A stretch of 64,000 bases of DNA. Origin: a virus. Under the pieces are notes generated by a model, which was not told the origin of the DNA, ran no database searches, and was given only the letters and a program-made list of their open reading frames with translations. Each line of letters starts with the position of its first letter. Position 1 is the stretch's first letter. Both the position numbers and the translations under genes were made by a program. This document shows, piece by piece, positions 4,931 to 27,905 of the stretch. The DNA is taken from positions 1-64,000 of IMG/VR virus record IMGVR_UViG_3300049489_000842; one strand, written 5' to 3'.

Positions 4931-4940
4931 AGTAACTTAT

Positions 4941-5624: not shown

Positions 5625-6049
5625 TATGATCCTTGATTAGTATATTCAACACCAAAAGTCACAAATAAATTAGTACCATCAAATGTGTATGATAGTATAG
5701 TAATAGCTCCTGCAGTTTCTGCTATAGCAACAACTCCTCCTCCATTATTAACTACGAATGGTGTAGGTGTTATATCTAGTGTCCATGCACCAGTTCCATC
5801 TTGTGTAACAATAACATTACCTTCACAACCAGATTCTAGATTTTTAAAAATAAGTGTTGAATCAGCCTCTAGTAAAAGTTTTGCGTTCTTTGTAAATCTT
5901 GAATCTAGTGTAAATGTATCTTCCTCATTTGGTAAGTCCGAATAAGCTATATCAAAAATATTTTTAATGGATAGTTCTTTTGTCTCTCCATTAGGTAAAG
6001 TAACATCTACCTTTTCAGTACCATTCGGTACAATTCTCATATCTTCCAT
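5624..6049 (-). CDS. Small structural/fibre-associated beta protein
   Basis: 141 aa with a VTQDGTGAWTL...ILSYTFDGTN motif typical of phage fibre accessory domains. Its stop overlaps the next start. Confidence 0.55.
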   Translation of the reverse strand: MEDMRIVPNGTEKVDVTLPNGETKELSIKNIFDIAYSDLPNEEDTFTLDSRFTKNAKLLLEADSTLIFKNLESGCEGNVIVTQDGTGAWTLDITPTPFVVNNGGGVVAIAETAGAITILSYTFDGTNLFVTFGVEYTNQGS

Positions 6050-6064
6050 ATTTATAGTTTTTTT

Positions 6065-6640: not shown

Positions 6641-6684
6641 GTGTATAATTTTTCGTTAAAGATACGAATAAAGATATAATAAAG

Positions 6685-6715
6685 AAAAAAGCCTGCCCGG
6701 ATAGGACAGGCTTTT
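6685..6715 (-). terminator. Intrinsic terminator after the auxiliary capsid gene
   Basis: Minus strand AAAAGCCTGTCC-TATCC-GGGCAGGC-TTTTTT. Confidence 0.8.
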
Positions 6716-6733
6716 ATTTGTCAAAAGCTGAAA

Positions 6734-7582: not shown

Positions 7583-7618
7583 AATAATTTGTGTTTTAAA
7601 TTAATAACTAAAAACTAA

Positions 7619-8305
7619 TTAAGGTTTTTGGGCCGCAAAAATCTTTGTGTCTTCTACAACAGCTTTAACTGCTATGTTTATTATATCCATAATTTCTGCA
7701 TCTGGAAAAGAAAATGATGTAGTTGCAGAAGATTCTCCATGGATAGATAAACCATCCGGTAAAGTCTCTAGTATTATTGGATTAGCTTTTAAAGCTATAG
7801 TTGCTGTATATTTTGAAAGTGTTGTTCCTACTGGAACATACAACTCTACATTTCTTAATGGTACTGTACTGATGTTAGATGTTTCTTTTAAAACCCTTAC
7901 ACATCCATGTCTGTAGTGTGGTTTTCTGAAAGGATTTTGAAGTGAGTCTATTATTTCTGATAGCCTATCTTCTACAACTTGAAATTCTTTATTATTATAG
8001 ATAGGGTTTGTAGAAGTCAATAATACTTTATCCCTTAAAACTTGTTTAATTTCACTGGCAAATGCGACTGTGTATCCTCCAAAAAATGTTGGGCCATTGA
8101 AAGTACTTATTTCTACAGATTGTACCAGCCTGGCTAATTTGTATGATATAGTTGAACTATCTTCAAATACATCCAGTAAAGCATTATAATAAGTATCCTG
8201 TGCTTCGGTAAGATAAATAGATTTCTCATATTCATCTTTCGATATACCTCCAGAGAAAGCACTAAGCTTTGTGTCGAATATGTCACTGATTGTCTTGAGA
8301 TCCAT
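7619..8305 (-). CDS. Tail ring protein (crAss-like), paralogue 2
   Basis: FD...S.G..YEKSIYLTEAQ and ANPIILETLPDGLSI motifs, shared with the upstream ORF. Confidence 0.7.
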   Translation of the reverse strand: MDLKTISDIFDTKLSAFSGGISKDEYEKSIYLTEAQDTYYNALLDVFEDSSTISYKLARLVQSVEISTFNGPTFFGGYTVAFASEIKQVLRDKVLLTSTNPIYNNKEFQVVEDRLSEIIDSLQNPFRKPHYRHGCVRVLKETSNISTVPLRNVELYVPVGTTLSKYTATIALKANPIILETLPDGLSIHGESSATTSFSFPDAEIMDIINIAVKAVVEDTKIFAAQKP

Positions 8306-8945
8306 TGCTTTGTCCGTATTTATCTAAATAATATTGTTCAGCTAATTGTACTGCTACTTCGAGTATTTTAGGGTGAAGAGAAGGAATTAAATCTGTGTTT
8401 TGATCGATAACAACCCCTCTTACACTTAATCCTGTACCTGTCAAATCCTCCAAAACTATCGGAGCCGGAAGAACCATATATCTAATTAAATATTTAGATA
8501 TTGTTACTCCAGATCTACCTATAATTTCTACAGTAGATGTGGTTGCTGCAGATGACTCTATTCTCCATGCAGTTCTCCTTTTAGGGTATCTATAAGGCCT
8601 ACTTCTTAATAAGGAATATTCTTGAAAAGATATAGGTGTAATAGAATGTCTTTGTGCTGTGTTGTCTTCTACTTCTTCGTTTAATGTTAAAGCTAAACTA
8701 GCTGGTAACGCAAATATAACAGAATTAGGGTTTAACTTATCTACTGAAACTGTAGGCACTATACTGTCAACCTTTATAAGGTTGGCTACCAAATCTGGAG
8801 AAGATTTCAATACTTGATAAGCTACAGCTTCAGCTGCCTGAGTAAGTATAACAGATTTTTCATAAGGGATAAGCCCTGGAGCTCCTCCCTTAGAAATATT
8901 CTGATAAATTATATCAAACTCATTATGGAATTCTGTAAGATTCAT
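8283..8945 (-). CDS. Tail ring protein (crAss-like), paralogue 1
   Basis: MNLTEFHNEFDIIYQNI...APGL.PYEKSVILTQA, PAPIVLEDL and LHPKILEVAV, characteristic of crAss ring proteins. Confidence 0.75.
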   Translation of the reverse strand: MNLTEFHNEFDIIYQNISKGGAPGLIPYEKSVILTQAAEAVAYQVLKSSPDLVANLIKVDSIVPTVSVDKLNPNSVIFALPASLALTLNEEVEDNTAQRHSITPISFQEYSLLRSRPYRYPKRRTAWRIESSAATTSTVEIIGRSGVTISKYLIRYMVLPAPIVLEDLTGTGLSVRGVVIDQNTDLIPSLHPKILEVAVQLAEQYYLDKYGQSNGSQDNQ

Positions 8946-8947
8946 TA

Positions 8948-9841
8948 CTATCCTATTTTAGCTTCTATTCTTTGTCTTAACGATGCATTAGCCGGGTTTG
9001 ATAAAAACTTGATTGCTGATGCCAATGAAGGACTTTCGTTTTCTTCACATAAAGTAATCCCATCTTCTAATGAGAAACTTCCATGGACATCTTTTATAAC
9101 TCCAGATAACACTCCTCTGGCTACCAAACTCCTTATTTTATAATCTTTAGTTGTGTAAATATTCACAACTTCTTCCGGCTCATTTTCTACCATTTGCCCT
9201 AACCTACTAATCAACCAAGTGATAGGTGTATCTGCTGCAACTCTGGTTCCTTTTAAATATAAGAACTCTCGTATATGTTGAGGGTTCAATTCAAGCTTTT
9301 CAGCTATCTTATAAGCCTCTTTCTTCACGTTGTATTTAACAACTTCTACATTATCTTCTTCACCCTGGCGAACCATAACAAAGTAATAAGTTGCTTTGTC
9401 ATTTAATTTTAAATCTGCTAAGCTAGGACTTACAGTGTTAGTGTAGGTAAGGAGTATTTTGTATCGTATATAATCGATTGGGTCAAATAACCTCAAATTC
9501 ATTCCTTCTTTTGGAACTGAAAATTCGAACTTATCCCAGAAGTTATTCTGGTCTTTATATAACCCAAGTCCCCCTTTATCATAACCAAGCATTTCCTCTA
9601 AGAACTTTTGCTCTTCAGCATCTAAAACCGGTATGTATTTAAAAGTTTCTTTAGACTTTTTAGGTACAAAATGTTTCGCTGTACCTTCAAGCATTCCTCC
9701 GAAAGCCACATGCTTTACATCTGAAATTGCTCCTCTTTGTTTTTTAATGAACTGAATTTTTACTGTTTCATACGGTAAGGAAAATTCTTCTTTTTCCTTT
9801 ACCTCTACTTCTGATGATTTCACTCCTGCCTTTGTTGTCAT
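8948..9841 (-). CDS. Conserved crAss-like protein downstream of the major capsid gene
   Basis: 297 aa with NNFW, L.L.DPIDYI.YK.L and AI.FL.NP.N motifs; conserved position. Confidence 0.6.
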   Translation of the reverse strand: MTTKAGVKSSEVEVKEKEEFSLPYETVKIQFIKKQRGAISDVKHVAFGGMLEGTAKHFVPKKSKETFKYIPVLDAEEQKFLEEMLGYDKGGLGLYKDQNNFWDKFEFSVPKEGMNLRLFDPIDYIRYKILLTYTNTVSPSLADLKLNDKATYYFVMVRQGEEDNVEVVKYNVKKEAYKIAEKLELNPQHIREFLYLKGTRVAADTPITWLISRLGQMVENEPEEVVNIYTTKDYKIRSLVARGVLSGVIKDVHGSFSLEDGITLCEENESPSLASAIKFLSNPANASLRQRIEAKIG

Positions 9842-9867
9842 AGTTTATAAAAATTAAAGTTTGTATT

Positions 9868-9898
9868 AAAAAAGTAAAGGTATAAAAACCTTTACTTT
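9868..9898 (-). terminator. Hairpin/terminator after the major capsid gene
   Basis: Inverted repeat AAAGTAAAGGT-n6-ACCTTTACTTT, with a T-run on the minus strand. Confidence 0.55.
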
Positions 9899-9917
9899 AA
9901 TTATACTTTAAACTTAA

Positions 9918-11414
9918 TTATTCAAGAATCGATGGTAAAATAACAGCTGTTCTGGATGGGTCGATGATGCAAGCACCAAGGTTAGTATACCTTGAGTAGG
10001 TTGCAGAATCTTCCATTGTACCCATATGAGAATTATTTACTTCACCTGTCCAAGGATTTCTAAATCCGGCCATGTATCCGCGAATATCACCAAGTTTGGT
10101 AGCAAGTCTCTTAATATTGGCTTTCTCTTTATTACCAAGATAGAAGATATCCAAACGATAAGATTCAGCTACTCCACCCTCAGGATGTTTAATCTTGTTA
10201 CGAACCTTGTTATCATAAGAGTTATCTACTTCAACCTTAAGAACAATGTTGTTTGGTAACAAGAATTCAGTGAATTGGAAACCGGCTTTTAAAGAATTAG
10301 AATGCAGATCCGAGTTTGCTTTCTCAATGGTTGGAGGGTTGTAAGTAGTTAAGTTGCTCCATCCTGATGCTGTAGTTTGTGCAGCTTTAGAAATTTTAGC
10401 GGCTCCCCTTCTACCTGTACGAATCATGAATTCAGCTACATTTTGTACATCCTCACGACCTTCAATCATGTCAGTCATAACGCTTTCCAATAATCCGATA
10501 GTAATATCGTTTGAGAAGAATACGTTAGATACTTCCATTTGTTCGCGTATACCAGCACCTTGCTTAATATAAAAACCTGATTTACCTAAGTCGGTATATG
10601 ATCCATCTTCGTTACGGTTCGAGCGAGCGAACATATAAGCACGAGATTTTTCACGTTCCCATTGTTTTTCGAATTCCCATTCTGCATATAACATCCATAC
10701 AGGAAATTCTACAACTTTACCATTAGCATCAGTTCCTACAAGATTACCAGCAACTTTACGGTTCATCATATCGCCACCAACTTTTTCTTCCATACGTAAT
10801 GTAGTAAAGCTGTTTCTCATGTCGATAGGAGAAGTGTAGCTTACTCCGCCACCTTTAGTTGAAAGAGAACTTTCAACAGGAGAGAAATCTTTAGAGAAGT
10901 ATTTACCAGGAGTAATCTCTACTGCAGGAACACCAGTCTTAGCTCCATAACCTAAAAGTTTGGTTCTGTAATGCCACCCGTCAGCTTTCTCTAATGGCTC
11001 GCCATTAACTTTGAACTGATAGATTTCATTCTTTTCACCAACGATTACGTTAACATCGCTGAATAATCTGATAGCAAAAACAAGAACAATCTCTATTCCG
11101 TTTTTACCTTGAACAGGATCTCCAGCAACAATAGGAGTACCAGCAGTAACATAAGCATATTCTAACGCAACATTCTTTTCATCATGTCCTGTTAGTTTCC
11201 AAGTAAAGTCATCATCAGTTTCTAGTACCTCTACAGGGTACTTTTCCAACTCAGTTGAAATAGTACGTACACTAGAACCAGCAAGGAACTTAGTGATCGC
11301 ATTTTGAAGTAATTGAGGCTTACCGCCGAATAACAGACCTAGTTGATTCGCGGTTACTAATCCGCTAAAATCTTGAATCTCGGTCATTTGAAATCTACCC
11401 AAATTTTGACTCAT
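9918..11414 (-). CDS. Major capsid protein (crAss-like HK97 fold)
   Basis: 498 aa. MRNSFTTLR, G.G.REQ, TGRRG, GFQFTE and HPEGG.AESYR.DI motifs of crAss-like MCPs; portal-X-MCP order. Confidence 0.9.
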   Translation of the reverse strand: MSQNLGRFQMTEIQDFSGLVTANQLGLLFGGKPQLLQNAITKFLAGSSVRTISTELEKYPVEVLETDDDFTWKLTGHDEKNVALEYAYVTAGTPIVAGDPVQGKNGIEIVLVFAIRLFSDVNVIVGEKNEIYQFKVNGEPLEKADGWHYRTKLLGYGAKTGVPAVEITPGKYFSKDFSPVESSLSTKGGGVSYTSPIDMRNSFTTLRMEEKVGGDMMNRKVAGNLVGTDANGKVVEFPVWMLYAEWEFEKQWEREKSRAYMFARSNRNEDGSYTDLGKSGFYIKQGAGIREQMEVSNVFFSNDITIGLLESVMTDMIEGREDVQNVAEFMIRTGRRGAAKISKAAQTTASGWSNLTTYNPPTIEKANSDLHSNSLKAGFQFTEFLLPNNIVLKVEVDNSYDNKVRNKIKHPEGGVAESYRLDIFYLGNKEKANIKRLATKLGDIRGYMAGFRNPWTGEVNNSHMGTMEDSATYSRYTNLGACIIDPSRTAVILPSILE

Positions 11415-11434
11415 TTTATTTAATTTAAAAAGGT

Positions 11435-12619
11435 TTACACTTTAACAATATCTGGTATATCTAATGAATGACCTCCGCCAAACACTCCGGCTCCAGAACC
11501 GGTACTTAGTACGCCTGAACTTTCTATGGCTTGTTTTAAACCTTTGGCAGCGTTACTTTCTGCGGCCCTTTGCAATCTACCTAGGTTCTTAAATCCATTG
11601 GTTATAGTATAAGCGTAATAAAATCTTTTTTCAAAATCAACAGGATCTGATAGTCTATCCTTAACAACAGCGTTAACTGGAATTCCATCTACCTCATCTA
11701 CTACTTCAGTCATCATTTTGTAAACCCGGTCTTTAAGAACACCATCTACTTTTATTGATCCTAAAGCTAATGACTCATTATAAACAGCATCTTTTAAAGC
11801 AATGATTTGTCTTTCATTTTCTTTCTCTTCTGCTGCTTTTTTGTTCTCGGCTTCTATCCTCTGATTTTCAATGAACTCTTTGTTGTTTTTATGTAAAGTT
11901 ACTTTAGCTAGTAAAGCTTCTTCCACATCTTCTTTAGATTGCTTTAATCTATCAATCTGTTTTGTTATCCTATATTCGTCCCAACCTTGTGCAGATAAAT
12001 CTGCTCTGATTAAAGCTTCTCTTAATTCAGGATCTTCTTTAATATCATGATCCGTTACACTTTCTAATCTTGTCAGAACATCTATTGGACCTTGAACTAC
12101 TTCATGAGGAACTCCTGTTTCTATCGCTTTAAGATAAGTTCTCTGTAACTCAGTAAGTCCGCTGTACTTTAATTCTTCCAAAGACTCCCTTACAGCATTA
12201 GCAAAGTCTTCTGGTGTTTTGATGGAAGAAACGTCTTTAAGCTCCGGCAATGCGCCTTGCTCTATTAAAAGAGCAGCAGCAGCTTCATAGACTGATTTGG
12301 CAGGAGAGTCATTGTTACTAGCTTTGTCATCCCCTTCGCCTCCCGAAGGATCTTCGGTAGACGTTTCTTTATCATCAAAATCATCTAGTAAAGCTACCAA
12401 ATCTTCTGCTTTACCTTTATCCAGTTCGAGCTTTGGTTTTTCAATTACCTGCTCTATCTTTTCTATAGGAGGAGGCAATTGTACTGTATCCTCCGTTTTT
12501 ACTTGCGTTTCCACTTGTTTTTGTTCTTCAGAAATAGGTGGTGTCACCGTACTTCTTGCAGTATTCAGGACTATGTTGTCCAGCATACTTAAGTCTAAAA
12601 GTTGATTTTCCCCTGCCAT
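11435..12619 (-). CDS. Acidic coiled-coil protein between portal and MCP (scaffold-like)
   Basis: Likely start MAGENQ at 12619. Acidic low-complexity N-terminus, helical C-terminus, conserved crAss-like position. Confidence 0.6.
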   Translation of the reverse strand: MAGENQLLDLSMLDNIVLNTARSTVTPPISEEQKQVETQVKTEDTVQLPPPIEKIEQVIEKPKLELDKGKAEDLVALLDDFDDKETSTEDPSGGEGDDKASNNDSPAKSVYEAAAALLIEQGALPELKDVSSIKTPEDFANAVRESLEELKYSGLTELQRTYLKAIETGVPHEVVQGPIDVLTRLESVTDHDIKEDPELREALIRADLSAQGWDEYRITKQIDRLKQSKEDVEEALLAKVTLHKNNKEFIENQRIEAENKKAAEEKENERQIIALKDAVYNESLALGSIKVDGVLKDRVYKMMTEVVDEVDGIPVNAVVKDRLSDPVDFEKRFYYAYTITNGFKNLGRLQRAAESNAAKGLKQAIESSGVLSTGSGAGVFGGGHSLDIPDIVKV

Positions 12620-12639
12620 TGTATTAAAGTTTATGTACA

Positions 12640-12647
12640 CAAATATA
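12640..12647 (-). promoter_or_regulatory. Bacteroidota-type -7 promoter element TATATTTG
   Basis: Matches TAnnTTTG about 20 nt upstream of the 12619 ATG. The same motif precedes other minus-strand operons. Confidence 0.55.
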
Positions 12648-12719
12648 CCATGAAGATTAGTATAAAAATTAAATCATAAACAGTCATGGTATTTTCTGTT
12701 TATGACTCAATAGGTTTTA

Positions 12720-15047
12720 TTATTTCCTGGAAGTTTTTGTTATACTTGCCTTTTTATCAGCTACAATAACCTTCTTATGTTCTATATCTATCTTAGCTTG
12801 TAGCTCCTTGATCCTCATTAATAAGTCATCTTTAGATACAGTCTCATCTAGATCTAATTGCTTATCTGCCATACCAAGTTTCATTTCCTCAATAAGAATT
12901 TTAGTGGCATTATTAGAATCAATCTCATACAATCTTAAATCCTTCTCTTCCTGAGCTAATCTAGATTGTTCCTTAATCTGTTCTTGAGCTATCTTGTTTT
13001 GCTGTTCCTGAGCTTGTGATGCTTGTTGTTGCATATCGTACTCAGCCAATTCAATTTTCCTTCTCTTCTCGATAAGGCTGTCAGAAAACATAATATCCAT
13101 AATTGTACTGAAGCTTCCATTGTTTTGCATAAATGCATGAGCAAATTGATGTAAGTTTTCCTTCATCTCATTAGCTTTCTTAGAAGTAGTAAGGAATATA
13201 CCATATTCACTATCAGCAAACTCATTACCTTCTAAATCCAAAACTTCGGTCGAGAAGTCATTAAGTACAACTTGGGCCAACATTTTATTTCCCCTTAATG
13301 CTACTTTAGCTGTTTCTATTAGAATCTGACAACATTCTAATTTAAACAATTGGTGTTGATAAAATTCGTAATAAGTGTTATTATTACTAGCCATTACGCT
13401 TCTTTCAGTTCCACCTACAGTAGCCGAAGTCTGCACTGCACCTTGTCTTTGAGGAGTTATACCTACTATGTCAGACATTTCTGATTTAATATAGTCTAGT
13501 AAGTTTATTTGTTGCTGGATATAATTCCCGGTATCCATGTCAAGAACTCTATTTGTAGTGTTTAGGTTCCCGGCTAATTTACCAGTTGCTACCCCTTTGT
13601 TTGCCTCTTTAAATCCGTCAGTAAATGCTATACCACCTTTGTATGCATACATCATCCATCTTTCAACTGTCCAGTCTTTAGGTATTTTGGCTAAGTCTAC
13701 TTCAAGGATTTTACCTAGATTCTTTTTGATTCCATCCATTAACCGGTCCCATACAATATCGTACAGGTATTGATAAGGCTTCATTTTTGAAAGGAAAGAA
13801 ACTACTTTACCTTCGGAAATAGAGTTAACGTACCCCACAACTCCTGGATGTCCTTTAGAGGGATTACCTAAAACATTAAACTGAATAGATCGTGGTTCAA
13901 TTCCTACATAGACATCATTACCTATTTTTCTTCCTTGCCACCATTCTTCCACCCATACTTTAGCTACCTTTTCTCCGTAAAGAATGTTTGGAGTATACTC
14001 TTCAGACATAATCCTTTCATACTGATCTCCGGTATCTGGGTTAGTTCCTGTAACAATCTTTATAAGTTTTTGTGATCTCCATAAAGCCGTTAAGTGCCTA
14101 ATGTTACCGTAAATATCCACAGTAGATTTGGTAGTCGAGGCATACCCAGCTTCTCCCATACCAGCTCTTACAATACCATCAACAACTACAGCATCTGGTA
14201 CTATAAAAGATTGTTGAAGTACATCAGTATATCTGGCATCAGAAGATAGTGTATTTGCATTTATCTTATCTACCTGTTCTGGGGTGAGTTTGTCATAATA
14301 ATGATCAATTAACCTCCCCTTTGACCAGTATTCCTCAATAATGATAATGTCAGCATCAGCTATTCTGTTCGAATTACTTGAATACAGAGTATGTACCCTT
14401 TTAGGGTCAAGCTTCCTGGCAACTGGTACACCAGACACAATATCAAACATCATAATCTCTTCGCCATATACAAGCCGGTCAATCATACATTCATTAAACT
14501 TCTCCTCCATCTTTTCCTTAAGAAAGAAGTGGTTGAAAAGTTTAGTTGCATTAACTTCCTTCATATCTTTCCAGGTGTACTTGAAGTACAAATCAAGTTC
14601 TTTTAACTTGGACTTCAACTCTTCATCGGAATATTGTGATTCTAATAAAGCCGTAACCTTCTCATTAATGAGAGTTTTCTTTTGCTCCTGTTTTTCTGAT
14701 ATACTTGTTGGGTCAGTTACCATAATAGAAACATCGAATGGTTCTTTGGCTGCTTCTCCTACAAGCAACTCTATCTTCGGGCGCATGATAGGCTTATGTT
14801 GTATTTTCTTAGGAACAAATGACTTTAGAGTACCATCTGTAGATATTACTTCTATAACATCTTTCATATCCAGTACACCATCATACAACTTACCATTAGT
14901 GTACTTCTCGGCGATAGACCGGCGTACTTCCTGGTCCGTTATAAAAGAAATACCCCCATCTATTTTATCCACACACAACTTTCTCCATTCTTCATTCTTT
15001 TCCTTAAACCTAAGTTTTTGAGGAGGTAATTGTATTATACGTGCCAT
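12720..15047 (-). CDS. Portal protein
   Basis: 775 aa. LP.QKL...K..EW, KI.LL.GE, MKPYQYLYD, GI..QRQG and VGG.ERSV motifs; directly follows terminase. Confidence 0.9.
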   Translation of the reverse strand: MARIIQLPPQKLRFKEKNEEWRKLCVDKIDGGISFITDQEVRRSIAEKYTNGKLYDGVLDMKDVIEVISTDGTLKSFVPKKIQHKPIMRPKIELLVGEAAKEPFDVSIMVTDPTSISEKQEQKKTLINEKVTALLESQYSDEELKSKLKELDLYFKYTWKDMKEVNATKLFNHFFLKEKMEEKFNECMIDRLVYGEEIMMFDIVSGVPVARKLDPKRVHTLYSSNSNRIADADIIIIEEYWSKGRLIDHYYDKLTPEQVDKINANTLSSDARYTDVLQQSFIVPDAVVVDGIVRAGMGEAGYASTTKSTVDIYGNIRHLTALWRSQKLIKIVTGTNPDTGDQYERIMSEEYTPNILYGEKVAKVWVEEWWQGRKIGNDVYVGIEPRSIQFNVLGNPSKGHPGVVGYVNSISEGKVVSFLSKMKPYQYLYDIVWDRLMDGIKKNLGKILEVDLAKIPKDWTVERWMMYAYKGGIAFTDGFKEANKGVATGKLAGNLNTTNRVLDMDTGNYIQQQINLLDYIKSEMSDIVGITPQRQGAVQTSATVGGTERSVMASNNNTYYEFYQHQLFKLECCQILIETAKVALRGNKMLAQVVLNDFSTEVLDLEGNEFADSEYGIFLTTSKKANEMKENLHQFAHAFMQNNGSFSTIMDIMFSDSLIEKRRKIELAEYDMQQQASQAQEQQNKIAQEQIKEQSRLAQEEKDLRLYEIDSNNATKILIEEMKLGMADKQLDLDETVSKDDLLMRIKELQAKIDIEHKKVIVADKKASITKTSRK

Positions 15048-21593: not shown

Positions 21594-21600
21594 CGAAAAG

Positions 21601-21820
21601 TTATTCTAATAGAGTAATTCGACCCTCATTTTATTCTCCCAGAATAACAAAAAATGTATGAGGTGTGTATGGGTTTTATTCTCCCAGAATAACTTTTCCT
21701 TTCCTTAAAATAAAAAGATGGAGTTCCATACGTGTTAACCGAGTATGGGTTTTTAAGAGTTATTCTCCCAGAGTACCTGAGTTATTCTGGTAGAGTACTT
21801 GAGTTATTCTCCCAGACACA
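21601..21820. repeat. Six palindromic sites TTATTCT-N3-AGA(A/G)TA; candidate iterons/operators
   Basis: Copies start at 21601, 21631, 21676, 21760, 21782 and 21804. The last three have exact 22-bp spacing; the last copy has a degenerate right arm. Confidence 0.85.
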
Positions 21821-22248
21821 TAACGGCCATTTCAAACCCAGTCGTATCAAGGGAAACACATATCTTATCTTTAATAAGGAGATTTTTTCTTTCTTTTTCC
21901 GGGGGAGGAAAGGTAGGGAGAGAGAGGTAGGGTAGGTAGGTAAGATACTACTCCCCCACCACATATTTTTTATGGCCCAGTCCTTTCACATAGAAAGGCA
22001 TAGGGGTACTTACTTACATCCCCCCCCCTAAACCAGTTGTGTATTAGAGTTCCATTTCTATCCCGAAGGGGGCACCCCTTCGGGTACTCGACATCTGGGT
22101 ATCCCCCGGCATTGAACCTCGTGGTTCCTATTGCTGTTTGGGTATGCTTCAAATGTTACGAAGAGACAACTTCGTTCCCACCTTGAGGAGAACCAAATTC
22201 GCGAAACCCGAAAAGCGTAAGAGTAGGGACATCAAATACAGAGATACT

Positions 22249-22734
22249 ATGGAAAATACTTCTAAATCCATGACGCTTCAAGTTCGTTCAATTGGTTACA
22301 GTGCTAAACGTAATCGTATAGTTTTCAATTTCTCTAACCCTGAAACAGCTGGTTTAGCACATGGCGTGCCAGCAGAATGGTTCGGTAAGAAACTTGCCAA
22401 CTTCGGAATGTTTGACATTACCGCTGCGCATTTAGAGTTGTTAGTGGAATTGAACGGTGTAACCGCGCATTGTAATGGTGTATCTATCATACCAGCAGGT
22501 TCGATGCTGGAAGGTAGGGACGAACCTACAAAGCAGGACAATCTGGACGTGGTTGACTTTGACTTCCAAGTCAAAGTGTTACCAAAGCTTCAGATTAAAA
22601 AGGAACTTACTCCGGAAGTGCTTAAAGGAATGCCTGTACTGTTTAAATCTTCTGTAACCGAAGCCGAAAAGGCTGAGGTTGCTAAACCAACAGTTGCAAC
22701 TATTGCAGCAGGAATATCTGAAGACGAGGAGTAA
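22249..22734 (+). CDS. First plus-strand (early) gene; beta-rich with acidic tail (possible ssDNA-binding protein)
   Basis: Likely start MENTSK at 22249, ends ISEDEE, followed by a strong hairpin. Confidence 0.6.
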   Translation: MENTSKSMTLQVRSIGYSAKRNRIVFNFSNPETAGLAHGVPAEWFGKKLANFGMFDITAAHLELLVELNGVTAHCNGVSIIPAGSMLEGRDEPTKQDNLDVVDFDFQVKVLPKLQIKKELTPEVLKGMPVLFKSSVTEAEKAEVAKPTVATIAAGISEDEE

Positions 22735-22748
22735 TCCTCTCTTCAGGA

Positions 22749-22788
22749 CCCTTCGGGAGGCCTTGTGCCTTCCGAGGGGATTCCTTTT
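22749..22788 (+). terminator. GC-rich hairpin/terminator
   Basis: CCCTTCGGGAGGC-CTTGT-GCCTTCCGAGGGG followed by attcctttt. Confidence 0.65.
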
Positions 22789-22800
22789 CAAATGTATACC

Positions 22801-23470
22801 TTAGGGGGCTGGAAGTGAGTGATAGCAAGGGCTGTAGCCTTCGCTAACAATCAACTCACTTCTAGCTCCCTTAATCATAACATAGTCCTAACGAAGACTA
22901 AACTTACCTACTCTCTGGTTTACAGAGGGTTGAGGGAGTTATAGCATGACTCGTTAGGACTTTCCTCTCCTTATCCTACAGAGAGAAACACTTGCTTATA
23001 GCTTTAGGCGTAGATGCAAGGTGAGTAGCACATTGAGGCTACAGTAGGGTTATGTGGCTATTTATAGCTACATTGGCAATTGTCTAAAAGGGGGATTCTC
23101 CTTTTAGATAATATACCTTGATAGAAACAAGCAGTAAAAAGATAGTACATACTGCAGGTTACAGTTCCTTCGGGGATAGTCGGTGTTGTCCGATGAAAGG
23201 TGATAACACCTGTAGCTGCTTGTTTCTTTACTAATGCACCACAACTCACTTCCCAAGGGTGAGCAGTTGTAATACCTGAAAAGGTAACAATAAAAAGGAA
23301 AGTAGGAAAAGTATAAGGCAATACCATTACAAGAGTATGTAAGAACCTTGTTGAAGTATCTTTCTTATTACAACTGAGTGCAGAGGGGTATAGAAAGCAG
23401 AGCACTCCTCGCTATAACGAGGTCGTACAGCCAGGTTTCAGTCTGGCCGGGGAGTGTTGCTTTCTTTTTT
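22801..23470 (+). ncRNA. Large structured non-coding RNA region (~670 nt), unassigned
   Basis: At least ten consecutive stems whose imperfect pairs are G-U on the plus strand. No credible ORF. Ends in a long stem plus U-tract. Confidence 0.6.
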
Positions 23471-23496
23471 AAATTGTAAACTCTTAAAAACACTAT

Positions 23497-23697
23497 ATGC
23501 GTAAAAGGATTAAGAACAATGTGAAGGCTCAGTTAGTGGCCTCTACTGTAGTTGGAAAGGAATATTACCTTTCCAAACTAAGAAATTTCAAGGAAGCTAT
23601 ACTTCCTGAGAAAACACGTGCCCATAAATTGGGCATGAATATATCTGGGTTAAAAAACTACGACGAGAGTCGTAGTGTAGGCCCAGGTACATTATGA
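23497..23697 (+). CDS. Small basic hypothetical protein
   Basis: 66 aa with an A-rich leader (aaactcttaaaaacactat). Confidence 0.55.
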   Translation: MRKRIKNNVKAQLVASTVVGKEYYLSKLRNFKEAILPEKTRAHKLGMNISGLKNYDESRSVGPGTL

Positions 23698-23832
23698 TTT
23701 AGAGTTTCCAAACCAGAGATAGTATCAAAGGGGAGGAAACTTATTACTTGCAGGTTTAACCTGTATGGCCACAGAGAACTCGAAAGGGTTGGTGCGAACA
23801 CTGATGCTTATGCATTAAGAAGAAACTCTAAA
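23698..23832 (+). ncRNA. Structured RNA element closed by an 11-bp stem
   Basis: TTTAGAGTTTC...GAAACTCTAAA encloses TGCAGG-TTTAA-CCTGTA and AACTC-GAAA-GGGTT hairpins. Confidence 0.5.
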
Positions 23833-23841
23833 AATATAAAA

Positions 23842-23967
23842 ATGAAAAAAGCAGTAAAACAAGAAGAAGCTGGTGCTTTGGCACTTGCAATGTTTTTAAT
23901 AACATCGTTTGTGACGGTGTTATTAATAATGGCTTTCACATTTGGGAGTAATCCCATAGGTGTTTAG
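23842..23967 (+). CDS. 41-aa single-TM peptide (below the ORF-track cutoff)
   Basis: MKKAVKQEEAGALALAMFLITSFVTVLLIMAFTFGSNPIGV* with an A-rich leader. Confidence 0.6.
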   Translation: MKKAVKQEEAGALALAMFLITSFVTVLLIMAFTFGSNPIGV

Positions 23968-24100
23968 ACTGATAAAACCAACAACCTGAAGCCGAATGGG
24001 GATAAGGGTGGTTGGTTAAGATAAAAACCGGATGCTAGTTATAACTGGACTTTTAGTAGAGTTTTTGTTATTGCCAACAGAGTTTTACCGGTTCTCAATT

Positions 24101-24136
24101 GAGGGGAGTCTACTTAGGTAGGCTCCTCTCTTTTTT
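24101..24136 (+). terminator. Intrinsic terminator
   Basis: GAGGGGAGTCTAC-TTAG-GTAGGCTCCTCTC-TTTTTT. Confidence 0.85.
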
Positions 24137-24258
24137 CTATTTTAATTTAAACAAATCCCCCTTAATCCTTACCAACGATTTTTGGTAGTGACATAAATGT
24201 CGTGACCAAATGTGAGGATAAGGGGGGAAATTACTAACAGCTAAAACAATAATAAAAG

Positions 24259-24672
24259 ATGAAAAACAGAAAAACGCTAGTGTTTATAGCTATTGTAGTA
24301 AGCTTAATCTGCTTGCTAATAGCTATTGAGTTTAAGGGGAGCTCACAAGAAAAACAAAAACCTTTAGAGGCTACACATTTGGTGTACAGCCTTAGAGCAC
24401 AAGAGGGACACATATACCAGTTTAAGAAAGACAATGACTTCAACTATTACATGGATGAAGGAGATGTCTATATGTATGGTTTATCTCATATCGACTCATT
24501 AGAGGAGGTAAGAGATTATGCTAATTACTACCACCTAACTTTTAAAGTAGAGGGTGTAGGCACTCTTGAAGACTGTAAAGCTATTGCAGGAGGTCTTTAT
24601 ATGGAGTATTATACTAGCGAGTACAAAGATAAGTACTCATGGCCAGTTCCACCCGGTAACTCTTTAAACTAA
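24259..24672 (+). CDS. Membrane-anchored URI/GIY-YIG-like protein, degenerate paralogue
   Basis: Basic N-terminus plus TM helix; YSLRA, GDVYMYG, VGTLEDC and PPGN align with the next ORF. Confidence 0.6.
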   Translation: MKNRKTLVFIAIVVSLICLLIAIEFKGSSQEKQKPLEATHLVYSLRAQEGHIYQFKKDNDFNYYMDEGDVYMYGLSHIDSLEEVRDYANYYHLTFKVEGVGTLEDCKAIAGGLYMEYYTSEYKDKYSWPVPPGNSLN

Positions 24673-24679
24673 ACATTTT

Positions 24680-25135
24680 ATGGCACAGAGACTAAGCAAC
24701 TCAGCAATAGCTACCTTATTAGTGGCTATAACAATGTTGTTATTTGCTATAACAACACTGCACTCTACAAGAGTGGCTGAAAAAGAGAGAGCAATAGGAA
24801 GGATATTAGAGGGGGAGGATGATCTAACCCCAGCAGTACAGTACTCCCTTAAGGCACTAACCTCAGGCATGTACCCTTGCTATGCAAAGGGTGGGCCATC
24901 AGAAGTGTACCTTGAAAGGGGAGATGTCTGGAAGTATGGCCAGACATGCAATCCAACTACCAGATATTCTGGTAGGTATCTTATAGAGAATCGTCTGTAT
25001 ATGGTGACAGAGTTTGTTGGAACCAAAACAGAATGTCTAATTATGGAAAAGGAGAAAATATTCTCCTATCCTATGCTGCCGGAAGGATTAAGGACTCATC
25101 TTACCAGGCCTCCTGGTAATAAAATAGATAACTGA
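24680..25135 (+). CDS. Membrane-anchored URI/GIY-YIG-like nuclease-fold protein
   Basis: N-terminal TM helix; YSLKA...GDVWKYGQT...RYS...MEKEKI..Y...RPPGNKI resembles URI-type polymorphic toxin tips. Confidence 0.6.
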   Translation: MAQRLSNSAIATLLVAITMLLFAITTLHSTRVAEKERAIGRILEGEDDLTPAVQYSLKALTSGMYPCYAKGGPSEVYLERGDVWKYGQTCNPTTRYSGRYLIENRLYMVTEFVGTKTECLIMEKEKIFSYPMLPEGLRTHLTRPPGNKIDN

Positions 25136-25422
25136 TGGTGATAGTTAATCCGGAACAAGAACATAGAATTATAGATTCTGATGTTCTTAAAGCAGTAATG
25201 AGTATAATAGCCAAGAAAAACATTATAATCATTACAGATTTCACAACAAATTCTAAGGGATTCCTTAAGAATTGTGAGACTGGAGAAATTAACCTGTTTG
25301 TCCCTAAAAATAACCAGGGACAATTGCTCTCAAATTGGGTAGAATTACTCAATATTATATCTTATGAGCTATCTTTGGGATTTAAACTAAACAAAAGTGG
25401 ACATATAGAATGGTTGACATGA
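25135..25422 (+). CDS. Hypothetical protein
   Basis: 95 aa, start overlaps the upstream stop. Confidence 0.55.
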   Translation: MVIVNPEQEHRIIDSDVLKAVMSIIAKKNIIIITDFTTNSKGFLKNCETGEINLFVPKNNQGQLLSNWVELLNIISYELSLGFKLNKSGHIEWLT

Positions 25423-25610
25423 GTTCAAACACAGAAAATATAGGGGAATATGAGGTTCTGAAATCCCAAGTCGGAATGAACGTTGGGATGTACTATGTTG
25501 GAAGGATGTACTTTCATGAAGGAGTATATCTACCTTACTCGGTGGATTCAGCATTCTTCATTACTAGGAATGCTGCTGAGGATTACTTTAATACTCATTT
25601 TAAGAAATAA
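25410..25610 (+). CDS. Small hypothetical protein
   Basis: 66 aa with a YYVGR...PYS.DS.FF.TR..AE motif, a recurring small phage protein type. Confidence 0.6.
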   Translation: MVDMSSNTENIGEYEVLKSQVGMNVGMYYVGRMYFHEGVYLPYSVDSAFFITRNAAEDYFNTHFKK

Positions 25611-25620
25611 CACTTAACTA

Positions 25621-26080
25621 TATAGACCGTGCAAGTGAAAAGGTTACTGGACGAATGCCCAGTGTTAGTTGAGTTTATAATAAAACTCTAGCTAAGAGTA
25701 TAACAAAGCCGCGAGGTAACTAAAGGATAAAAAGAATTAAATGCGTCGTGGCAGTGTGGCTCTGCCCTTTAGAAGTTTACCAAGCTGTAGGTGAGATTCC
25801 TACAGCTATTTTAACGGCGCAAAGCACGTAGTGTAGTCTGGAAACTGATCAACCAGAAAGGTACTATTCGATTAGTATTGCGCCTCTATAAAGTCTCTCT
25901 GCTTAGGAAACAAGCATACATACCAGCGTAAACCTGGTAGCAATATCAACTAATTATGTAGATTTGGCAAATCAGCTTGTGGAGTAGGTTATAATAATAA
26001 AGAATAACAAGAAAGTAACATAAGAAACATGACTTGCTTTAATGTTATAATACTTTGCCAGGTACAGAGAGATTTTATTT
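25621..26080 (+). ncRNA. Structured non-coding region (~460 nt) including a T-loop hairpin, a tRNA-like cloverleaf and a ~185-nt closed domain
   Basis: AGCTGTAGG-TGAGATT-CCTACAGCT; GGCGCA...TGCGCC cloverleaf; AAGTCTCTCTG(25891)...CAGAGAGATTT(26075). Confidence 0.55.
25816..25888 (+). ncRNA. Degenerate tRNA-like element (not a canonical tRNA)
   Basis: Acceptor-like GGCGCA/TGCGCC, short D-like arm, TCTGG-11nt-CCAGA arm, TACTA-TTCGAT-TAGTA T-like arm, 3' TCTA instead of NCCA. Confidence 0.45.
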
Positions 26081-26099
26081 TTAATTTAAACTTAAAAAG

Positions 26100-26378
26100 A
26101 TGGGAGTAAATCAATTAAAGAAGTATGTAATATTACACTTAACTGATAATGGGTGGAAAGTAGAGATGCCACACTATGATCGTGTATATGTAAAAGATGG
26201 AAAAACCATTATAGTAGAACATAATCATGTAAATTTTTACTTTAGAGGGTATTACTTCGGTAAGTGTGATCACACTAATTTATTAACAGATTGTCATGCA
26301 TTTATAAGATACTTTGTTGAGGGAGATAACATGGAACAGAAACCACAAGATCCTCTTAGTATCTTTGATTCATTATAA
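26100..26378 (+). CDS. Hypothetical protein
   Basis: 92 aa with an A-rich leader. Confidence 0.65.
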   Translation: MGVNQLKKYVILHLTDNGWKVEMPHYDRVYVKDGKTIIVEHNHVNFYFRGYYFGKCDHTNLLTDCHAFIRYFVEGDNMEQKPQDPLSIFDSL

Positions 26379-26640
26379 GGCTACGGCCTAGGCTAGAGAA
26401 AAGACAGCCTGCAGCACCTGAGAAGGACTGCGAAATATCGTCAGTAATGGCGGACATGTTATTGCCTTGAGAAAGCAAGCCGAAATAGGATTATATTGTA
26501 GTGAAAGACACTAGGGTATCCATAACATGAACTCGTTCTCGGCATAAAGAATTCCTCTCTTTAGTGTGAAGGATAACTTTAGAGATATGAACTGCTGGTA
26601 TACCAGAATCAGTCCTGTCTTTGACCCTGAGTAATCAGGG
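26378..26640 (+). ncRNA. Multi-domain structured RNA (~260 nt) rich in T-loop and GNRA motifs, unassigned
   Basis: UACG tetraloop hairpin; closing stem AAAGACAG(26400)/CTGTCTTT(26622); nested CATGTTAT/ATAACATG; two TGAGAA and two CGAAATA motifs; two GTAA-capped stems. Confidence 0.65.
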
Positions 26641-26663
26641 TGCTAAAACTAAAACTCTTAAAA

Positions 26664-26873
26664 ATGAAAGTAACAGTTAAACATTGTTTTACAGGAGAAT
26701 TTAACTCTTTAGAATTGGATATAACCCCAGAACAAGCAGAAAGAATCCTCAAAAATGAGGAAAAATTACAAGATATAGTTCCTCACTTATCTGCTGATGA
26801 AAGAGAATTTCTTATAACAGGAATGCTGCCTGGCGAGTTTGATGCTTTATTAGATTGTTCTGACGAATACTGA
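26664..26873 (+). CDS. Small conserved phage protein
   Basis: LQDIVPHLSADEREFLITG...EFD motif, widespread in phages; likely start 26664. Confidence 0.7.
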   Translation: MKVTVKHCFTGEFNSLELDITPEQAERILKNEEKLQDIVPHLSADEREFLITGMLPGEFDALLDCSDEY

Positions 26874-26875
26874 TT

Positions 26876-27040
26876 ATGTATAAAGTAATTGATGAAGGCG
26901 GAAACCTCTTCCTCGTCAAGTACGAGGAAAAAGAGGAAGATGGATTATGGGTTCCAGAGATTCTAGTAGAATCAAAATCCCAAGAGATAATAGCCGAAGA
27001 GTTAATGAGGCTTGAGTTGTTAGAAATAGAAAGTAATTGA
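26876..27040 (+). CDS. 54-aa highly acidic protein (below the ORF-track cutoff)
   Basis: MYKVIDEGGNLFLVKYEEKEEDGLWVPEILVESKSQEIIAEELMRLELLEIESN*; fills the gap between neighbouring ORFs. Confidence 0.6.
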   Translation: MYKVIDEGGNLFLVKYEEKEEDGLWVPEILVESKSQEIIAEELMRLELLEIESN

Positions 27041-27285
27041 TGCAGCTAGAAAAAGACAACAGTGTAGTGTTCCAAACAAATGAGGTCGAACAAACCTCTA
27101 AAGGGTACAAGCTTAACTCTGGAGGATTTATACCAAGAGAGGCTGTGCGCGTACAGATACTATCCAAGGAAAACTTCCCTGGAAAGAAATCTGTGGAGAA
27201 AATAATGCTGGTATTGAAGAGAACCAGTTTAAATAAATCTCTTTATACTCTATTACGTAGTAATAGAGAAGTCAGAAACCAATAA
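27037..27285 (+). CDS. Hypothetical protein
   Basis: 82-aa ORF coupled to the upstream stop. Confidence 0.55.
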   Translation: MMQLEKDNSVVFQTNEVEQTSKGYKLNSGGFIPREAVRVQILSKENFPGKKSVEKIMLVLKRTSLNKSLYTLLRSNREVRNQ

Positions 27286-27296
27286 ATTTTTTAAGA

Positions 27297-27905
27297 ATGA
27301 ATTTTGATTTTTTAAATGATTTGGGAGAGTCTTTACTTCCTGTTGAAACAAAAAAGAGAGTAGCAGCTTCTAAAGTTCCTGTAAATGGAATAATGAGGGT
27401 GACTAAAAAACAGATTGTATTTGGAGATGAGTTTCGTGCATCTGTGGGAACAAAGATGATTGACATGGTTTTCTCAACTGAGTGGAGTCAATATCCTACC
27501 GGAAAACCTAAAGTCCTGTTTTGTGTAGTGCTGCTTAACGAGGAAAAACCTCTTAAGGCTGACATTAAGAAAGAAGGACCAACACAGTATGCTGCAGAGC
27601 TTCTTGGTAAACTCATTAATTTCTTTGATCTACCCGAAGATACTAAATCTGTAGAGTTAGATTGGAGCCCAGAAAATGCTGTGTTTGTGAAAAAGGCACG
27701 CTTTTCTAAAATTGTACAGAGAGGAGAAGAGAAAGGGTTGCCTACTTATGTTACCAGGGACAATGCCCACATGAACCCGGTCTTTGTTGTAGCTAATGCT
27801 GAAGAGGTATTAGAAGATGATATTGAATTGGAAGATCTTAGAAACACACCTGAGGTTGATACAGACATTGTAGAAGAGGACGCTATACCACAGAAAAAGA
27901 AGTAA
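27297..27905 (+). CDS. Hypothetical protein with acidic C-terminus
   Basis: 202-aa ORF immediately upstream of polA. Confidence 0.7.
   Translation: MNFDFLNDLGESLLPVETKKRVAASKVPVNGIMRVTKKQIVFGDEFRASVGTKMIDMVFSTEWSQYPTGKPKVLFCVVLLNEEKPLKADIKKEGPTQYAAELLGKLINFFDLPEDTKSVELDWSPENAVFVKKARFSKIVQRGEEKGLPTYVTRDNAHMNPVFVVANAEEVLEDDIELEDLRNTPEVDTDIVEEDAIPQKKK

What the first reader, a model, noticed from the sequence alone, without database searches (positions are those of the whole stretch)
26378..26640. ~260-nt RNA with repeated T-loop modules and GNRA caps
Seen: AGGC-TACG-GCCT hairpin, then an 8-bp closing stem (26400-26407 with 26615-26622). It encloses GCAG..CC-TGAGAA-GG..CTGC, CGAAATA, TCGTCA-GTAA-TGGCGG, a nested CATGTTAT/ATAACATG domain carrying a second TGAGAA and CC-GAAATA-GG, and further stems. 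A final CCCTGA-GTAA-TCAGGG hairpin follows. Established: paired T-loops are tertiary modules used by RNase P, T-box and the L1 stalk to bind tRNA elbows. Inference: a complex, tertiary-folded ncRNA that I cannot assign to a riboswitch or ribozyme class I know.
Basis: partly seen in the sequence, partly recalled or inferred. Interest (0 to 1): 0.72.

Follow-up and report, generated by a model that had tools for sequence, protein, structure and literature searches.

The report
Orphan folded RNA in crAss-like phage
A 260-base gene-free gap in an uncultured crAss-like phage most likely encodes a tightly folded non-coding RNA of no catalogued family, one more of the unexplained RNAs these phages carry beside their replication genes.

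Summary
The window is an 88.5-kb IMG/VR record of a crAss-like phage; its best portal match is Cellulophaga phage phi14:2, 38.7%. The stretch lies between two complete + strand ORFs.

The + strand has five GNRA/UNCG-capped hairpins against 0.70 in shuffles (p 0.0005), and the - strand has none. No other 268-nt stretch of the window has more. Whole-element folding is modest (z -2.66). Rfam gives nothing.

Near-identical phages in other public runs carry an 8-nt UUCG mini-hairpin exactly in one predicted terminal loop.

No more distant homologue was found, so there is no covariation test. Expression is not shown. The 8-bp "closing stem" competes with equally good local pairings. The "T-loops" read equally well as U-GAGA-A GNRA tetraloops.

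Best reading: a real + strand structured RNA, probably a stable non-coding RNA like the abundant early intergenic RNAs of phi14:2, function unknown. A cis-acting leader is the main rival.

The scan has noted similar orphan RNAs in other crAss-like phages.

The parts
26360..26367 (+). TATCTTTG, a match to the Bacteroidota -7 promoter element TAnnTTTG (consensus recalled), 10 nt before the first hairpin. This is a weak hint of an own start.
   Evidence: the motif is not enriched in the window (91 matches against 82 expected). No TTTG lies at the usual -33 distance.
26378..26389 (+). 5' hairpin AGGC-UACG-GCCT (UNCG-type loop), overlapping the last base of the TAA stop of the upstream ORF.
   Evidence: Pair probability 0.98. 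Counted.
26390..26410 (+). Alternative hairpin AGGCU...AGCCU. It is mutually exclusive with the closing stem.
   Evidence: Mean pair probability 0.94 in the 311-nt context. Part of the MFE.
26400..26407 (+).
   Evidence: Perfect complement of 26615-26622. In the MFE of the 268-nt context, but with probability about 0.13.
26410..26432 (+). Hairpin P2: UGCAG/CUGCG plus CCU/AGG with a GAGA loop (first UGAGAA).
   Evidence: Pair probabilities 0.80 and 0.97..
26431..26437 (+). CGAAAUA, copy 1.
26438..26453 (+). Hairpin P2b: UCGUCA-GUAA-UGGCGG, 6 bp including two G-U pairs.
   Evidence: Probability 0.80..
26455..26529 (+). P3 domain, closed by the 8-bp stem CAUGUUAU/AUAACAUG. It holds the second UGAGAA hairpin (26463-26483), CGAAAUA copy 2 (26481-26487) and a long arm at 26488-26521 (UAGUG-AAAGA-CACUA tip).
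   Evidence: The closing stem has probability 0.79-0.84. The tip helix has probability 1.00. The pairing of the second UGAGAA hairpin is ambiguous: 0.65 against 0.17-0.21.
26533..26590 (+). P4 arm: 26545-49/26577-81 and 26553-56/26570-73, with a variable tip at 26559-26570.
   Evidence: MFE. In the other runs the tip carries substitutions and an 8-nt UUCG mini-hairpin insertion. That insertion would break the alternative fold.
26591..26613 (+). Hairpin P5: ACUG-CUGG-UAUA-CCAG-AAU-CAGU.
   Evidence: Probabilities 0.89 and 0.99.
26610..26624 (+). Pyrimidine-rich 3' strand with four candidate partners: 26400-07 (closing stem), 26504-10, 26424-30 and 26579-87.
   Evidence: The pairing 26579-87/26616-24 has probability 0.86.
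26624..26641 (+). 3' hairpin ACCCUGA-GUAA-UCAGGGU, with no U-tract behind it.
   Evidence: Probability 0.96. Not listed as terminator-like.
26642..26666 (+). A-rich unstructured leader ending in AAACTCTTAAAAA plus the ATG of the 69-aa ORF. AAUGAA (26663-68) can pair with UUCAUU (26369-74).
   Evidence: the same 13-mer occurs at 23478 before another small ORF. Pairing probability 0.81.

Best explanation
The stretch 26378-26641 is a real + strand structured RNA element of a crAss-like phage.

Inferred synthesis: it is made as part of the rightward transcript that runs from the small-gene region into the replication genes. It may also have its own start just upstream.

Fold: it forms a chain of stable hairpins, five of them capped by GNRA or UNCG loops, around an 8-bp-closed P3 domain. 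Whether a long-range stem closes the whole element is open.

Inferred fate: the UACG hairpin at the 5' edge and the GUAA hairpin at the 3' edge would shield the ends. The element would then persist as a discrete, nuclease-resistant non-coding RNA, as do the abundant, persistent early intergenic RNAs of the related phage phi14:2.

Inferred action: it acts in trans on an unknown host or phage partner. The duplicated U-GAGA-A...CGAAAUA modules are the likeliest contact surfaces.

Shown: non-coding status, strand-specific structure signal, absence from Rfam, natural length variation at a loop. Inferred: transcription, stability, trans action.
For: - Non-coding gap of 285 nt between complete + strand ORFs, in a gene-dense phage. 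No frame under recoding.
- G+C is 0.41 here against 0.28-0.34 in the flanks.
- Five tetraloop-capped hairpins on the + strand against 0.70 expected (p 0.0005) and none on the - strand. It is the densest such stretch in the window.
- Robust helices contain G-U pairs that would be C-A mismatches on the other strand.
- MFE z -2.66.
- The duplicated composite motif is unique to this spot.
- In one search, all three contigs from other runs that cover the P4 tip (X3 record 14, X2 records 4 and 5) carry the letters of an inserted UUCG-capped mini-hairpin in that predicted terminal loop. In X3, 26563 A>C adds a pair to the new stem.
- In X3 no listed difference falls in 26529-26558 or 26571-26707. The adjacent coding DNA shows 37 listed differences in 26708-27437 (that table is truncated).
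- Precedent: two long intergenic regions of phi14:2 are transcribed rightward, early, above most genes, and persist, with function unknown (passages read). This phage is a crAss-like relative of phi14:2.
Against: - No homologue beyond near-identical strains, so there is no covariation statistic. The single-sequence model R1 hit only itself in the 88.5-kb record. It hit nothing significant in 100 loci, in phi14:2 1-14000 or in 47 whole virus records.
- No similarity to the phi14:2 intergenic RNAs, and those show no tetraloop excess.
- Transcription is not shown. The one RNA library laid gave contigs elsewhere in the region, not here.
- No terminator follows the element, and the next start codon is 23 nt away, which also fits a leader.
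- Local folding z-scores are ordinary for this region.
- The global fold is ambiguous.
Confidence: 0.45

Rival explanations
1. It is a cis-acting leader or intercistronic element. The folded domain is part of the mRNA and tunes translation or stability of the 69-aa ORF and the replication genes behind it. It could do so by alternative pairings of the 26610-26624 strand. It could also do so through the 26369-74/26663-68 helix, which covers the AUG and would be opened by ribosomes finishing the upstream ORF.
For: - The element is 23 nt from the ATG, with no terminator between.
- The 3' strand has four mutually exclusive partners.
- The stop-proximal UUCAUU pairs with AAUGAA at probability 0.81.
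- The same leader AAACTCTTAAAAA follows another structured gap before a small ORF at 23478.
Against: - Relatives of the downstream gene mostly lack any such leader. Of 81 loci with a scorable upstream gap, 65 have 150 nt or less and only 5 have 250 nt or more.
- None of the related loci matches the RNA.
- The A-rich start region itself is predicted open apart from a 6-bp A-U-rich helix that could be chance.
- No riboswitch family matches.
Confidence: 0.25
2. It is a spacer with no function of its own. It would be a fast-evolving gap whose hairpins only slow RNases or arose by chance, or a decayed remnant of a gene or mobile element.
For: - It is an orphan with no homologues.
- Modest z-scores, and coding neighbours fold as well in 200-nt windows.
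- About 0.45 perfect 8-bp stems are expected by chance in such a stretch.
Against: - The tetraloop excess is strong and strand-specific.
- The motif duplication is far from chance.
- In the X3 strain the listed changes cluster in one loop, while the flanking gene diverges by about 5%.
Confidence: 0.15
3. The two UGAGAA loops are paired T-loops that stack on a tRNA elbow, as in T-box stem I, RNase P and the L1 stalk.
For: UGAGA fits the loose U-N-N-R-A pattern of T-loops (pattern recalled, not from a call). There are two copies.
Against: - The same letters form U-A-closed GAGA tetraloops, the reading the energy model prefers.
- No T-box or RNase P signal even at E up to 10.
- No tRNA genes in the window.
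Confidence: 0.05
4. It is a mobile or catalytic RNA, either an ORF-less group I intron or a self-cleaving ribozyme.
For: The size is typical of ORF-less group I introns. crAss-like phages can be rich in introns (abstract and passages read).
Against: - It lies between genes, not within one. The upstream ORF ends in TAA. The downstream protein aligns from its first Met with 15 homologues.
- No intron or ribozyme family even at E up to 10.
Confidence: 0.05
5. It is a DNA-level element, either a replication origin or a cluster of protein-binding sites just upstream of the replication genes.
For: It sits 1.3 kb before the DNA polymerase gene. It has a duplicated 13-letter composite motif and several inverted repeats.
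Against: DNA hairpins and operators are strand-symmetric. Here the tetraloop signal is 5 against 0 between strands, and helices use G-U pairs.
Confidence: 0.05

Closest known systems
Early long non-coding RNAs of the crAss-like Cellulophaga phage phi14:2 (g004-g005 and g005-g006 intergenic regions; bioRxiv 10.1101/2020.03.07.982082, passages read)
   Same: - Both lie in a crAss-like phage, in a long ORF-free gap among small rightward genes ahead of the DNA polymerase.
- Function is unknown in both.
   Different: - No sequence or covariance-model similarity.
- The phi14:2 gap is about 1.7 kb against 0.26 kb here.
- phi14:2 shows no tetraloop-cap excess.
- Expression is shown for phi14:2 and not here.
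Other uncatalogued structured RNAs noted by this scan in early regions of crAss-like phages (notes e1-3432099, e1-6045629, e1-6024612, e1-6012346)
   Same: Same kind of place and phage. All are ORF-free, + strand folded and absent from Rfam. Several were reported as exchangeable modules.
   Different: These are AI notes that I did not test. A word look-up with this sequence found only this genome, so there is no evidence of shared family.
Large ornate phage-associated RNAs such as ROOL and GOLLD (recalled)
   Same: Phage-linked, rich in GNRA loops, no known function.
   Different: Those are 500 nt or more and are Rfam families. Nothing matches here.
Junction-type riboswitch leaders, for example the five-way-junction lysine riboswitch (recalled)
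   Same: One predicted fold is a five-branch junction closed by a P1 stem directly upstream of an ORF.
   Different: - No family match.
- P1 is not the favoured pairing.
- Homologous genes elsewhere lack the leader.
Interdigitated double T-loop modules of T-box stem I, RNase P and the L1 stalk (recalled)
   Same: Two loops whose letters fit a loose T-loop pattern.
   Different: The letters read as GNRA tetraloops in the energy model. There is no match to those families. The fold was not tested.

Membership tests
crAss-like phage early intergenic lncRNAs (phi14:2 type) | Lies in a long ORF-free gap among rightward small genes of a Crassvirales genome. | tested here: met
   Portal 38.7% identical to phi14:2, and 122 crAss-type records matched. 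ORF map. phi14:2 layout.
crAss-like phage early intergenic lncRNAs (phi14:2 type) | Transcribed early, abundant and persistent. | not testable with these tools
   Only contigs could be laid. The one RNA library gave no contig on the element, which shows nothing either way.
crAss-like phage early intergenic lncRNAs (phi14:2 type) | Sequence or structure homology to the phi14:2 RNAs. | tested here: not met
   R1 with filters off gave at best 8.9 bits, E 0.12, in phi14:2 1-14000. blastn and tblastx gave nothing significant.
Any Rfam 15 family | Score at or above the family's gathering threshold. | tested here: not met
   0 matches in the whole window. At E up to 10 only sub-threshold chance hits appeared, none on the + strand core.
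Double T-loop tRNA-elbow binders (T-box stem I, RNase P, L1 stalk) | Two T-loops (position 1-5 reverse-Hoogsteen pair) that interdigitate. | not testable with these tools
   Only the letters can be seen. They also form U-A-closed GAGA tetraloops.
Double T-loop tRNA-elbow binders (T-box stem I, RNase P, L1 stalk) | Match to the T-box or RNase P covariance models. | tested here: not met
Group I intron | Interrupts a gene whose exons join into one frame. | tested here: not met
   The upstream ORF ends in TAA at 26376-26378. The downstream protein is full length against 15 homologues.
Group I intron | Conserved catalytic core (Rfam Intron_gpI). | tested here: not met
   No hit at E up to 10.
Riboswitch or conserved cis-regulatory leader | Conserved upstream of homologous genes. 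| tested here: not met
   65 of 81 scorable loci have 150 nt or less upstream. No RNA match in the loci.
Riboswitch or conserved cis-regulatory leader | Alternative pairings that gate a terminator or start site. | tested here: inconclusive
   Mutually exclusive helices exist, and a 6-bp helix covers the AUG. No terminator is present and no conservation data are available.

The most novel reading that the evidence does not exclude
The duplicated U-GAGA-A...CGAAAUA-plus-GNRA-hairpin modules form a new tandem tertiary module. Through it a compact phage RNA would dock on a host RNA or protein, for instance a tRNA elbow, the ribosome or a defence sensor. It would redirect or blind that partner early in infection. 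That would make this a founding member of a trans-acting class of crAss-like phage RNAs.
Probability: 0.08. Interest if true: 0.8.

Novelty: new member of a known kind. Interest (0 to 1): 0.45.

Why it matters
- crAss-like phages are among the most abundant phages known.
- The one cultured relative studied by transcriptomics makes abundant, persistent non-coding RNAs of unknown role.
- A compact 260-nt example with clear hairpins is far easier to probe, delete or pull down than the kilobase-sized gaps.
- Natural length variants of it already sit in public runs.
- If it proves functional, it offers a handle on what these phages do with RNA in the first minutes of infecting Bacteroidota.
- By itself it is an orphan candidate without shown expression, so its present value is as a lead.

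Tried and rejected
Family and similarity searches
- Rfam at gathering score on the whole window gave 0. At E up to 10 on 601 nt and on 296 nt only chance hits appeared.
- ARAGORN found no tRNA or tmRNA.
- blastn 'distant' of 26300-26700 against 50,697 phage records gave none.
- The own record holds only the element itself plus a 12-nt palindrome.

Protein-anchored hunts for relatives
- DNA polymerase in viral contigs: 0 relatives.
- Portal: 1 relative (63% identical) on an 8.7-kb contig that does not reach this region.
- The 202-aa ORF: 0 relatives.
- The 69-aa ORF: 68 viral loci and 50 metagenome loci, at most 55% identical.
- None of these loci resembles the RNA. nhmmer found none. The best blastn E was 0.9 and 1.4.
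- None of the seven other neighbouring proteins tested has a match in these loci, so synteny says nothing.

Upstream-gap count
- I used 83 of the 118 loci. I left out 35 by eye, because the match was partial or there was too little upstream DNA.
- 2 of the 83 had no upstream ORF.
- Nine of the longer gaps were folded. Some fold well (z to -4.1) but are unrelated.

DNA pattern scans
All look like chance.
- The one 29-nt blastn match (L098, E 0.005) lies in G+C-rich coding-like DNA and scores 3.9 bits with R1.
- The 18-base P4/P5 pattern gave 0.
- The 26-base two-module pattern gave 0 in viral contigs. In genome contigs it gave 1 match, a tandem repeat in a Pseudoxanthomonas genome that is unrelated.

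Covariance model R1
- It hit only itself in the own record.
- It found nothing significant in 100 loci, in phi14:2 plus L241 or in L244.
- It matched 0 of 47 whole virus records. One handle, L036, was not held.

Coding and other checks
- No + strand frame under TAG=Q or table 4. A 94-codon - strand frame needs 4 TAG=Q and has no Met before about codon 44. TAG ends 9 of 42 long ORFs.
- The promoter hint TAnnTTTG is not enriched in the window.
- The 2231-aa ORF gave no PDB match and has no DFDxD motif. I therefore do not call it the virion RNA polymerase.
- Pfam found 0 families for 10 neighbouring ORFs.

Public runs
- 17 runs were listed and 4 were laid: X2, X3, X4 and X15.
- No contig of the RNA library X15 lies on the element.
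- No contig of any laid run covers 26313-26514.
- Neither gap shows anything.

Papers
- Searches found no paper describing this RNA. The one relevant paper is the phi14:2 preprint, which I read in passages only.
- I also read passages of PMC7886860 and PMC9226505.
- PMC10136315 holds none of my four terms.
- Supplementary files were not opened. The phi14:2 supplementary tables may hold coordinates and abundances that bear on the comparison.
Full report
WHERE IT LIES

The window is the first 64 kb of an 88.5-kb IMG/VR virus record. Its portal protein matches 122 phage records, all below 60% identity. The best is Cellulophaga phage phi14:2 at 38.7%, followed by uncultured and Bacteroides crAss-like phages. 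PHROGs names a portal and a DNA polymerase. It is therefore a crAss-like phage, presumably of a Bacteroidota host.

The one run that holds the stretch whole is a freshwater sediment metagenome, and it may be the source of the record.

The finding fills the gap between a 92-aa + strand ORF (26100-26378, stop TAA) and a 69-aa + strand ORF that starts at ATG 26664. The 69-aa protein belongs to phrog_20898. It aligns from its first Met with 15 homologues, so it is a whole gene and not a second exon. The DNA polymerase gene follows 1.3 kb downstream.

No + strand frame crosses the gap under table 11, TAG=Q or table 4. TAA, TAG and TGA end 29, 9 and 4 of 42 long ORFs, so nothing suggests recoding.

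THE OBSERVATION

The tests against chance gave these results:
- The composite TGAGAA-N-CGAAATA occurs twice in 64 kb, both here, against 0.01 expected.
- Five hairpins of at least 3 bp carry GNRA or UNCG loops on the + strand: UACG, GAGA, GUAA, GAGA and GUAA. Shuffles give 0.70 (p 0.0005). The - strand has none.
- No other 268-nt stretch of the window on either strand has more.
- Perfect stems of at least 7 bp number 5 against 1.66 expected (p 0.026).
- The MFE of the 281-nt stretch is -79.9 kcal/mol, z -2.66, with 1 of 200 shuffles as good. The reverse strand gives z -2.26.
- G+C rises to 0.41 from 0.28-0.34 in the flanks.

Against this, 200-nt windows over the element give z of only -1.3 to -2.9. 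That is ordinary for this region, where 22600-22999 reaches -6 to -9 and some coding windows reach -4 to -5 (25 shuffles each).

THE FOLD

These helices are robust in every context I folded:
- the 5' UACG hairpin (probability 0.98);
- P2 with the first GAGA loop (0.80 and 0.97);
- P2b with GUAA (0.80);
- the 8-bp P3 stem (0.79-0.84) and its distal arm (up to 1.00);
- P5 (0.89 and 0.99);
- the 3' GUAA hairpin (0.96).

In a 311-nt context it falls below 0.1. There the favoured pairings are 26390-94/26406-10 (0.94) and 26579-87/26616-24 (0.86).

The pyrimidine-rich 3' strand 26610-26624 has four candidate partners. So the element is either one junction-closed domain or a chain of separate hairpin domains, and the energies do not decide.

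The 'T-loops' are the two UGAGAA hexamers. The energy model closes each with a U-A pair and reads a GAGA tetraloop. A T-loop fold cannot be tested with these tools.

NATURAL VARIANTS

I laid four of the 17 listed runs, as contigs only.

X3 record 14 (1063 nt) covers 26529-27583 with 58 differing letters and 14 gap letters.
- Within the element its listed changes are 26559 C>A, a G put in behind 26559, 26563 A>C, eight letters put in behind 26565, and 26570 A>G.
- The eight letters are a self-complementary GC-UUCG-GC unit.
- By hand, the new C at 26563 pairs with G26568, and the flanking G64-U67 and U65-G66 extend the stem. The terminal loop of P4 in the fold thus becomes a UUCG-capped helix.
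- The alternative P4 would be broken by both substitutions and split by the insertion. The variants therefore favour the version of P4.

X2 records 4 and 5 show the same inserted letters in their loose ends, so all three contigs that reach this spot carry it.

X2 record 5 differs from the window at 26581 A>G, 26582 G>A, 26585 A>G, 26586 U>C, 26589 G>U and 26590 A>U.
- The first four keep pairing with an unchanged 26616-22.
- The last two are unpaired in that model.
- This mildly favours 26579-87/26616-24 over the closing stem. But purine transitions opposite U always keep pairing, the 5' partners needed to judge the other model were not covered, and record 5 has five unlocated differences in 26591-26640.

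In X3 no listed difference falls in 26529-26558 or 26571-26707, against 37 listed in 26708-27437. The table was cut (59 rows not shown), and recombination could give the same picture. I count this only as a hint of constraint.

SEARCH FOR RELATIVES

None was found beyond these near-identical strains.
- Similarity searches: Rfam, phage-record blastn and the own-record search found nothing.
- Protein-anchored hunts: one distant portal relative on a short contig, none for the polymerase or the 202-aa ORF, and 118 loci for the widespread 69-aa gene.
- None of those loci resembles the RNA by blastn, nhmmer or the single-sequence covariance model R1.
- R1 also found nothing in the 47 whole virus records behind the loci, nor in phi14:2.
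- Pattern scans gave chance hits or nothing.
- In 65 of 81 scorable loci the 69-aa gene has 150 nt or less upstream. The element is therefore not a conserved leader of that gene family.
That blocked the closer relatives seen in the protein search (P0001 at 97%, P0002 at 66%).

WHAT IT MOST LIKELY IS

The strand-specific tetraloop excess, the G-U pairs, the motif duplication and the loop-restricted natural insertion together make a real + strand structured RNA the best reading. I put that at about 0.7.

For its role the nearest precedent is phi14:2. There, two long intergenic regions among the early genes are transcribed rightward above the level of most genes, appear at the first time point and do not decline. 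Their functions 'remain to be determined' (passages of bioRxiv 10.1101/2020.03.07.982082). The layout of phi14:2 is similar: long ORF-free gaps among small rightward genes ahead of the polymerase.

The element's stable hairpins at both edges would suit a processed, nuclease-resistant RNA. I therefore favour a stable non-coding RNA acting in trans on an unknown partner (0.45 for the full statement).

The main rival is a cis-acting leader (0.25). The element ends 23 nt before the ATG with no terminator. It has competing pairings. A predicted 6-bp helix joins the end of the upstream ORF to the AUG.

Lesser rivals are a functionless spacer (0.15), a T-loop tRNA binder (0.05), an intron or ribozyme (0.05) and a DNA-level site (0.05).

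COMPARISON AND NOVELTY

It works, as far as can be told, like the crAss-like early intergenic RNAs. But it is not a homologue of the phi14:2 RNAs, and it differs in size and in its tetraloop density. It is not a member of any Rfam family.

This scan has already noted at least eight structured, uncatalogued RNAs in early regions of other crAss-like phages. All but one compare theirs with the phi14:2 RNAs in their title or verdict (AI notes, not tested here). Another reader noted that 22140-26640 of this window alternates folded gaps and tiny ORFs. My z-score scan agrees for parts of it.

I file it as a new member of a known but unexplained kind, with interest 0.45. It is a tidy, testable example, but it is an orphan without covariation or expression data.

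Noticed in passing
window 22198-22229 (+): Near-threshold match to Rfam DUF805b RNA (35.1 bits against gathering 35.6, E 2.8e-07). It lies just upstream of the ATG at 22249 of the first rightward ORF (161 aa), which has no Pfam family.
   Followed up: no
window 22600-23499, 23500-23799, 24000-24299 (+): Other stretches of the same arm fold far better than shuffles, with z to -9.5 at 22700-22899 and -7.1 at 24100-24299. ORF-free gaps lie at 22735-23496, 23698-23841, 23968-24258 and 25611-26099. None matches R1.
   Followed up: partly
window 23478-23490, 26652-26664 (and 23823-23835 with 2 mismatches): The 13-mer AAACTCTTAAAAA occurs exactly twice on the + strand. Each copy ends at or a few bases before the ATG of a small ORF that follows a folded ORF-free gap. 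It may be a shared translation-start leader.
   Followed up: partly
window 21599-21816: An array of five or more copies of TTATTCT-N3-AGA(A/G)TA-type repeats, three of them spaced 22 bp apart, at the switch between leftward and rightward genes (families D1-D3).
   Followed up: no
window 26664-26873 (+); loci L003-L070, L191-L240: The 69-aa protein (phrog_20898) is a widespread small phage protein with invariant P..DEREFL..G residues. It was found in 68 viral and 50 metagenome loci in varied gene contexts. No Pfam family and no known function.
   Followed up: partly
window 25437-25611 and 26000-26039: A freshwater metatranscriptome library (X15) holds contigs matching these two stretches. One is 175 nt with 1 difference. 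DNA carry-over cannot be excluded, and neither contig touches the finding.
   Followed up: no
window 45892-52587 (-): The 2231-aa ORF has no PHROG, no PDB sequence match and no DFDxD motif. It cannot be named the virion RNA polymerase from these data.
   Followed up: partly
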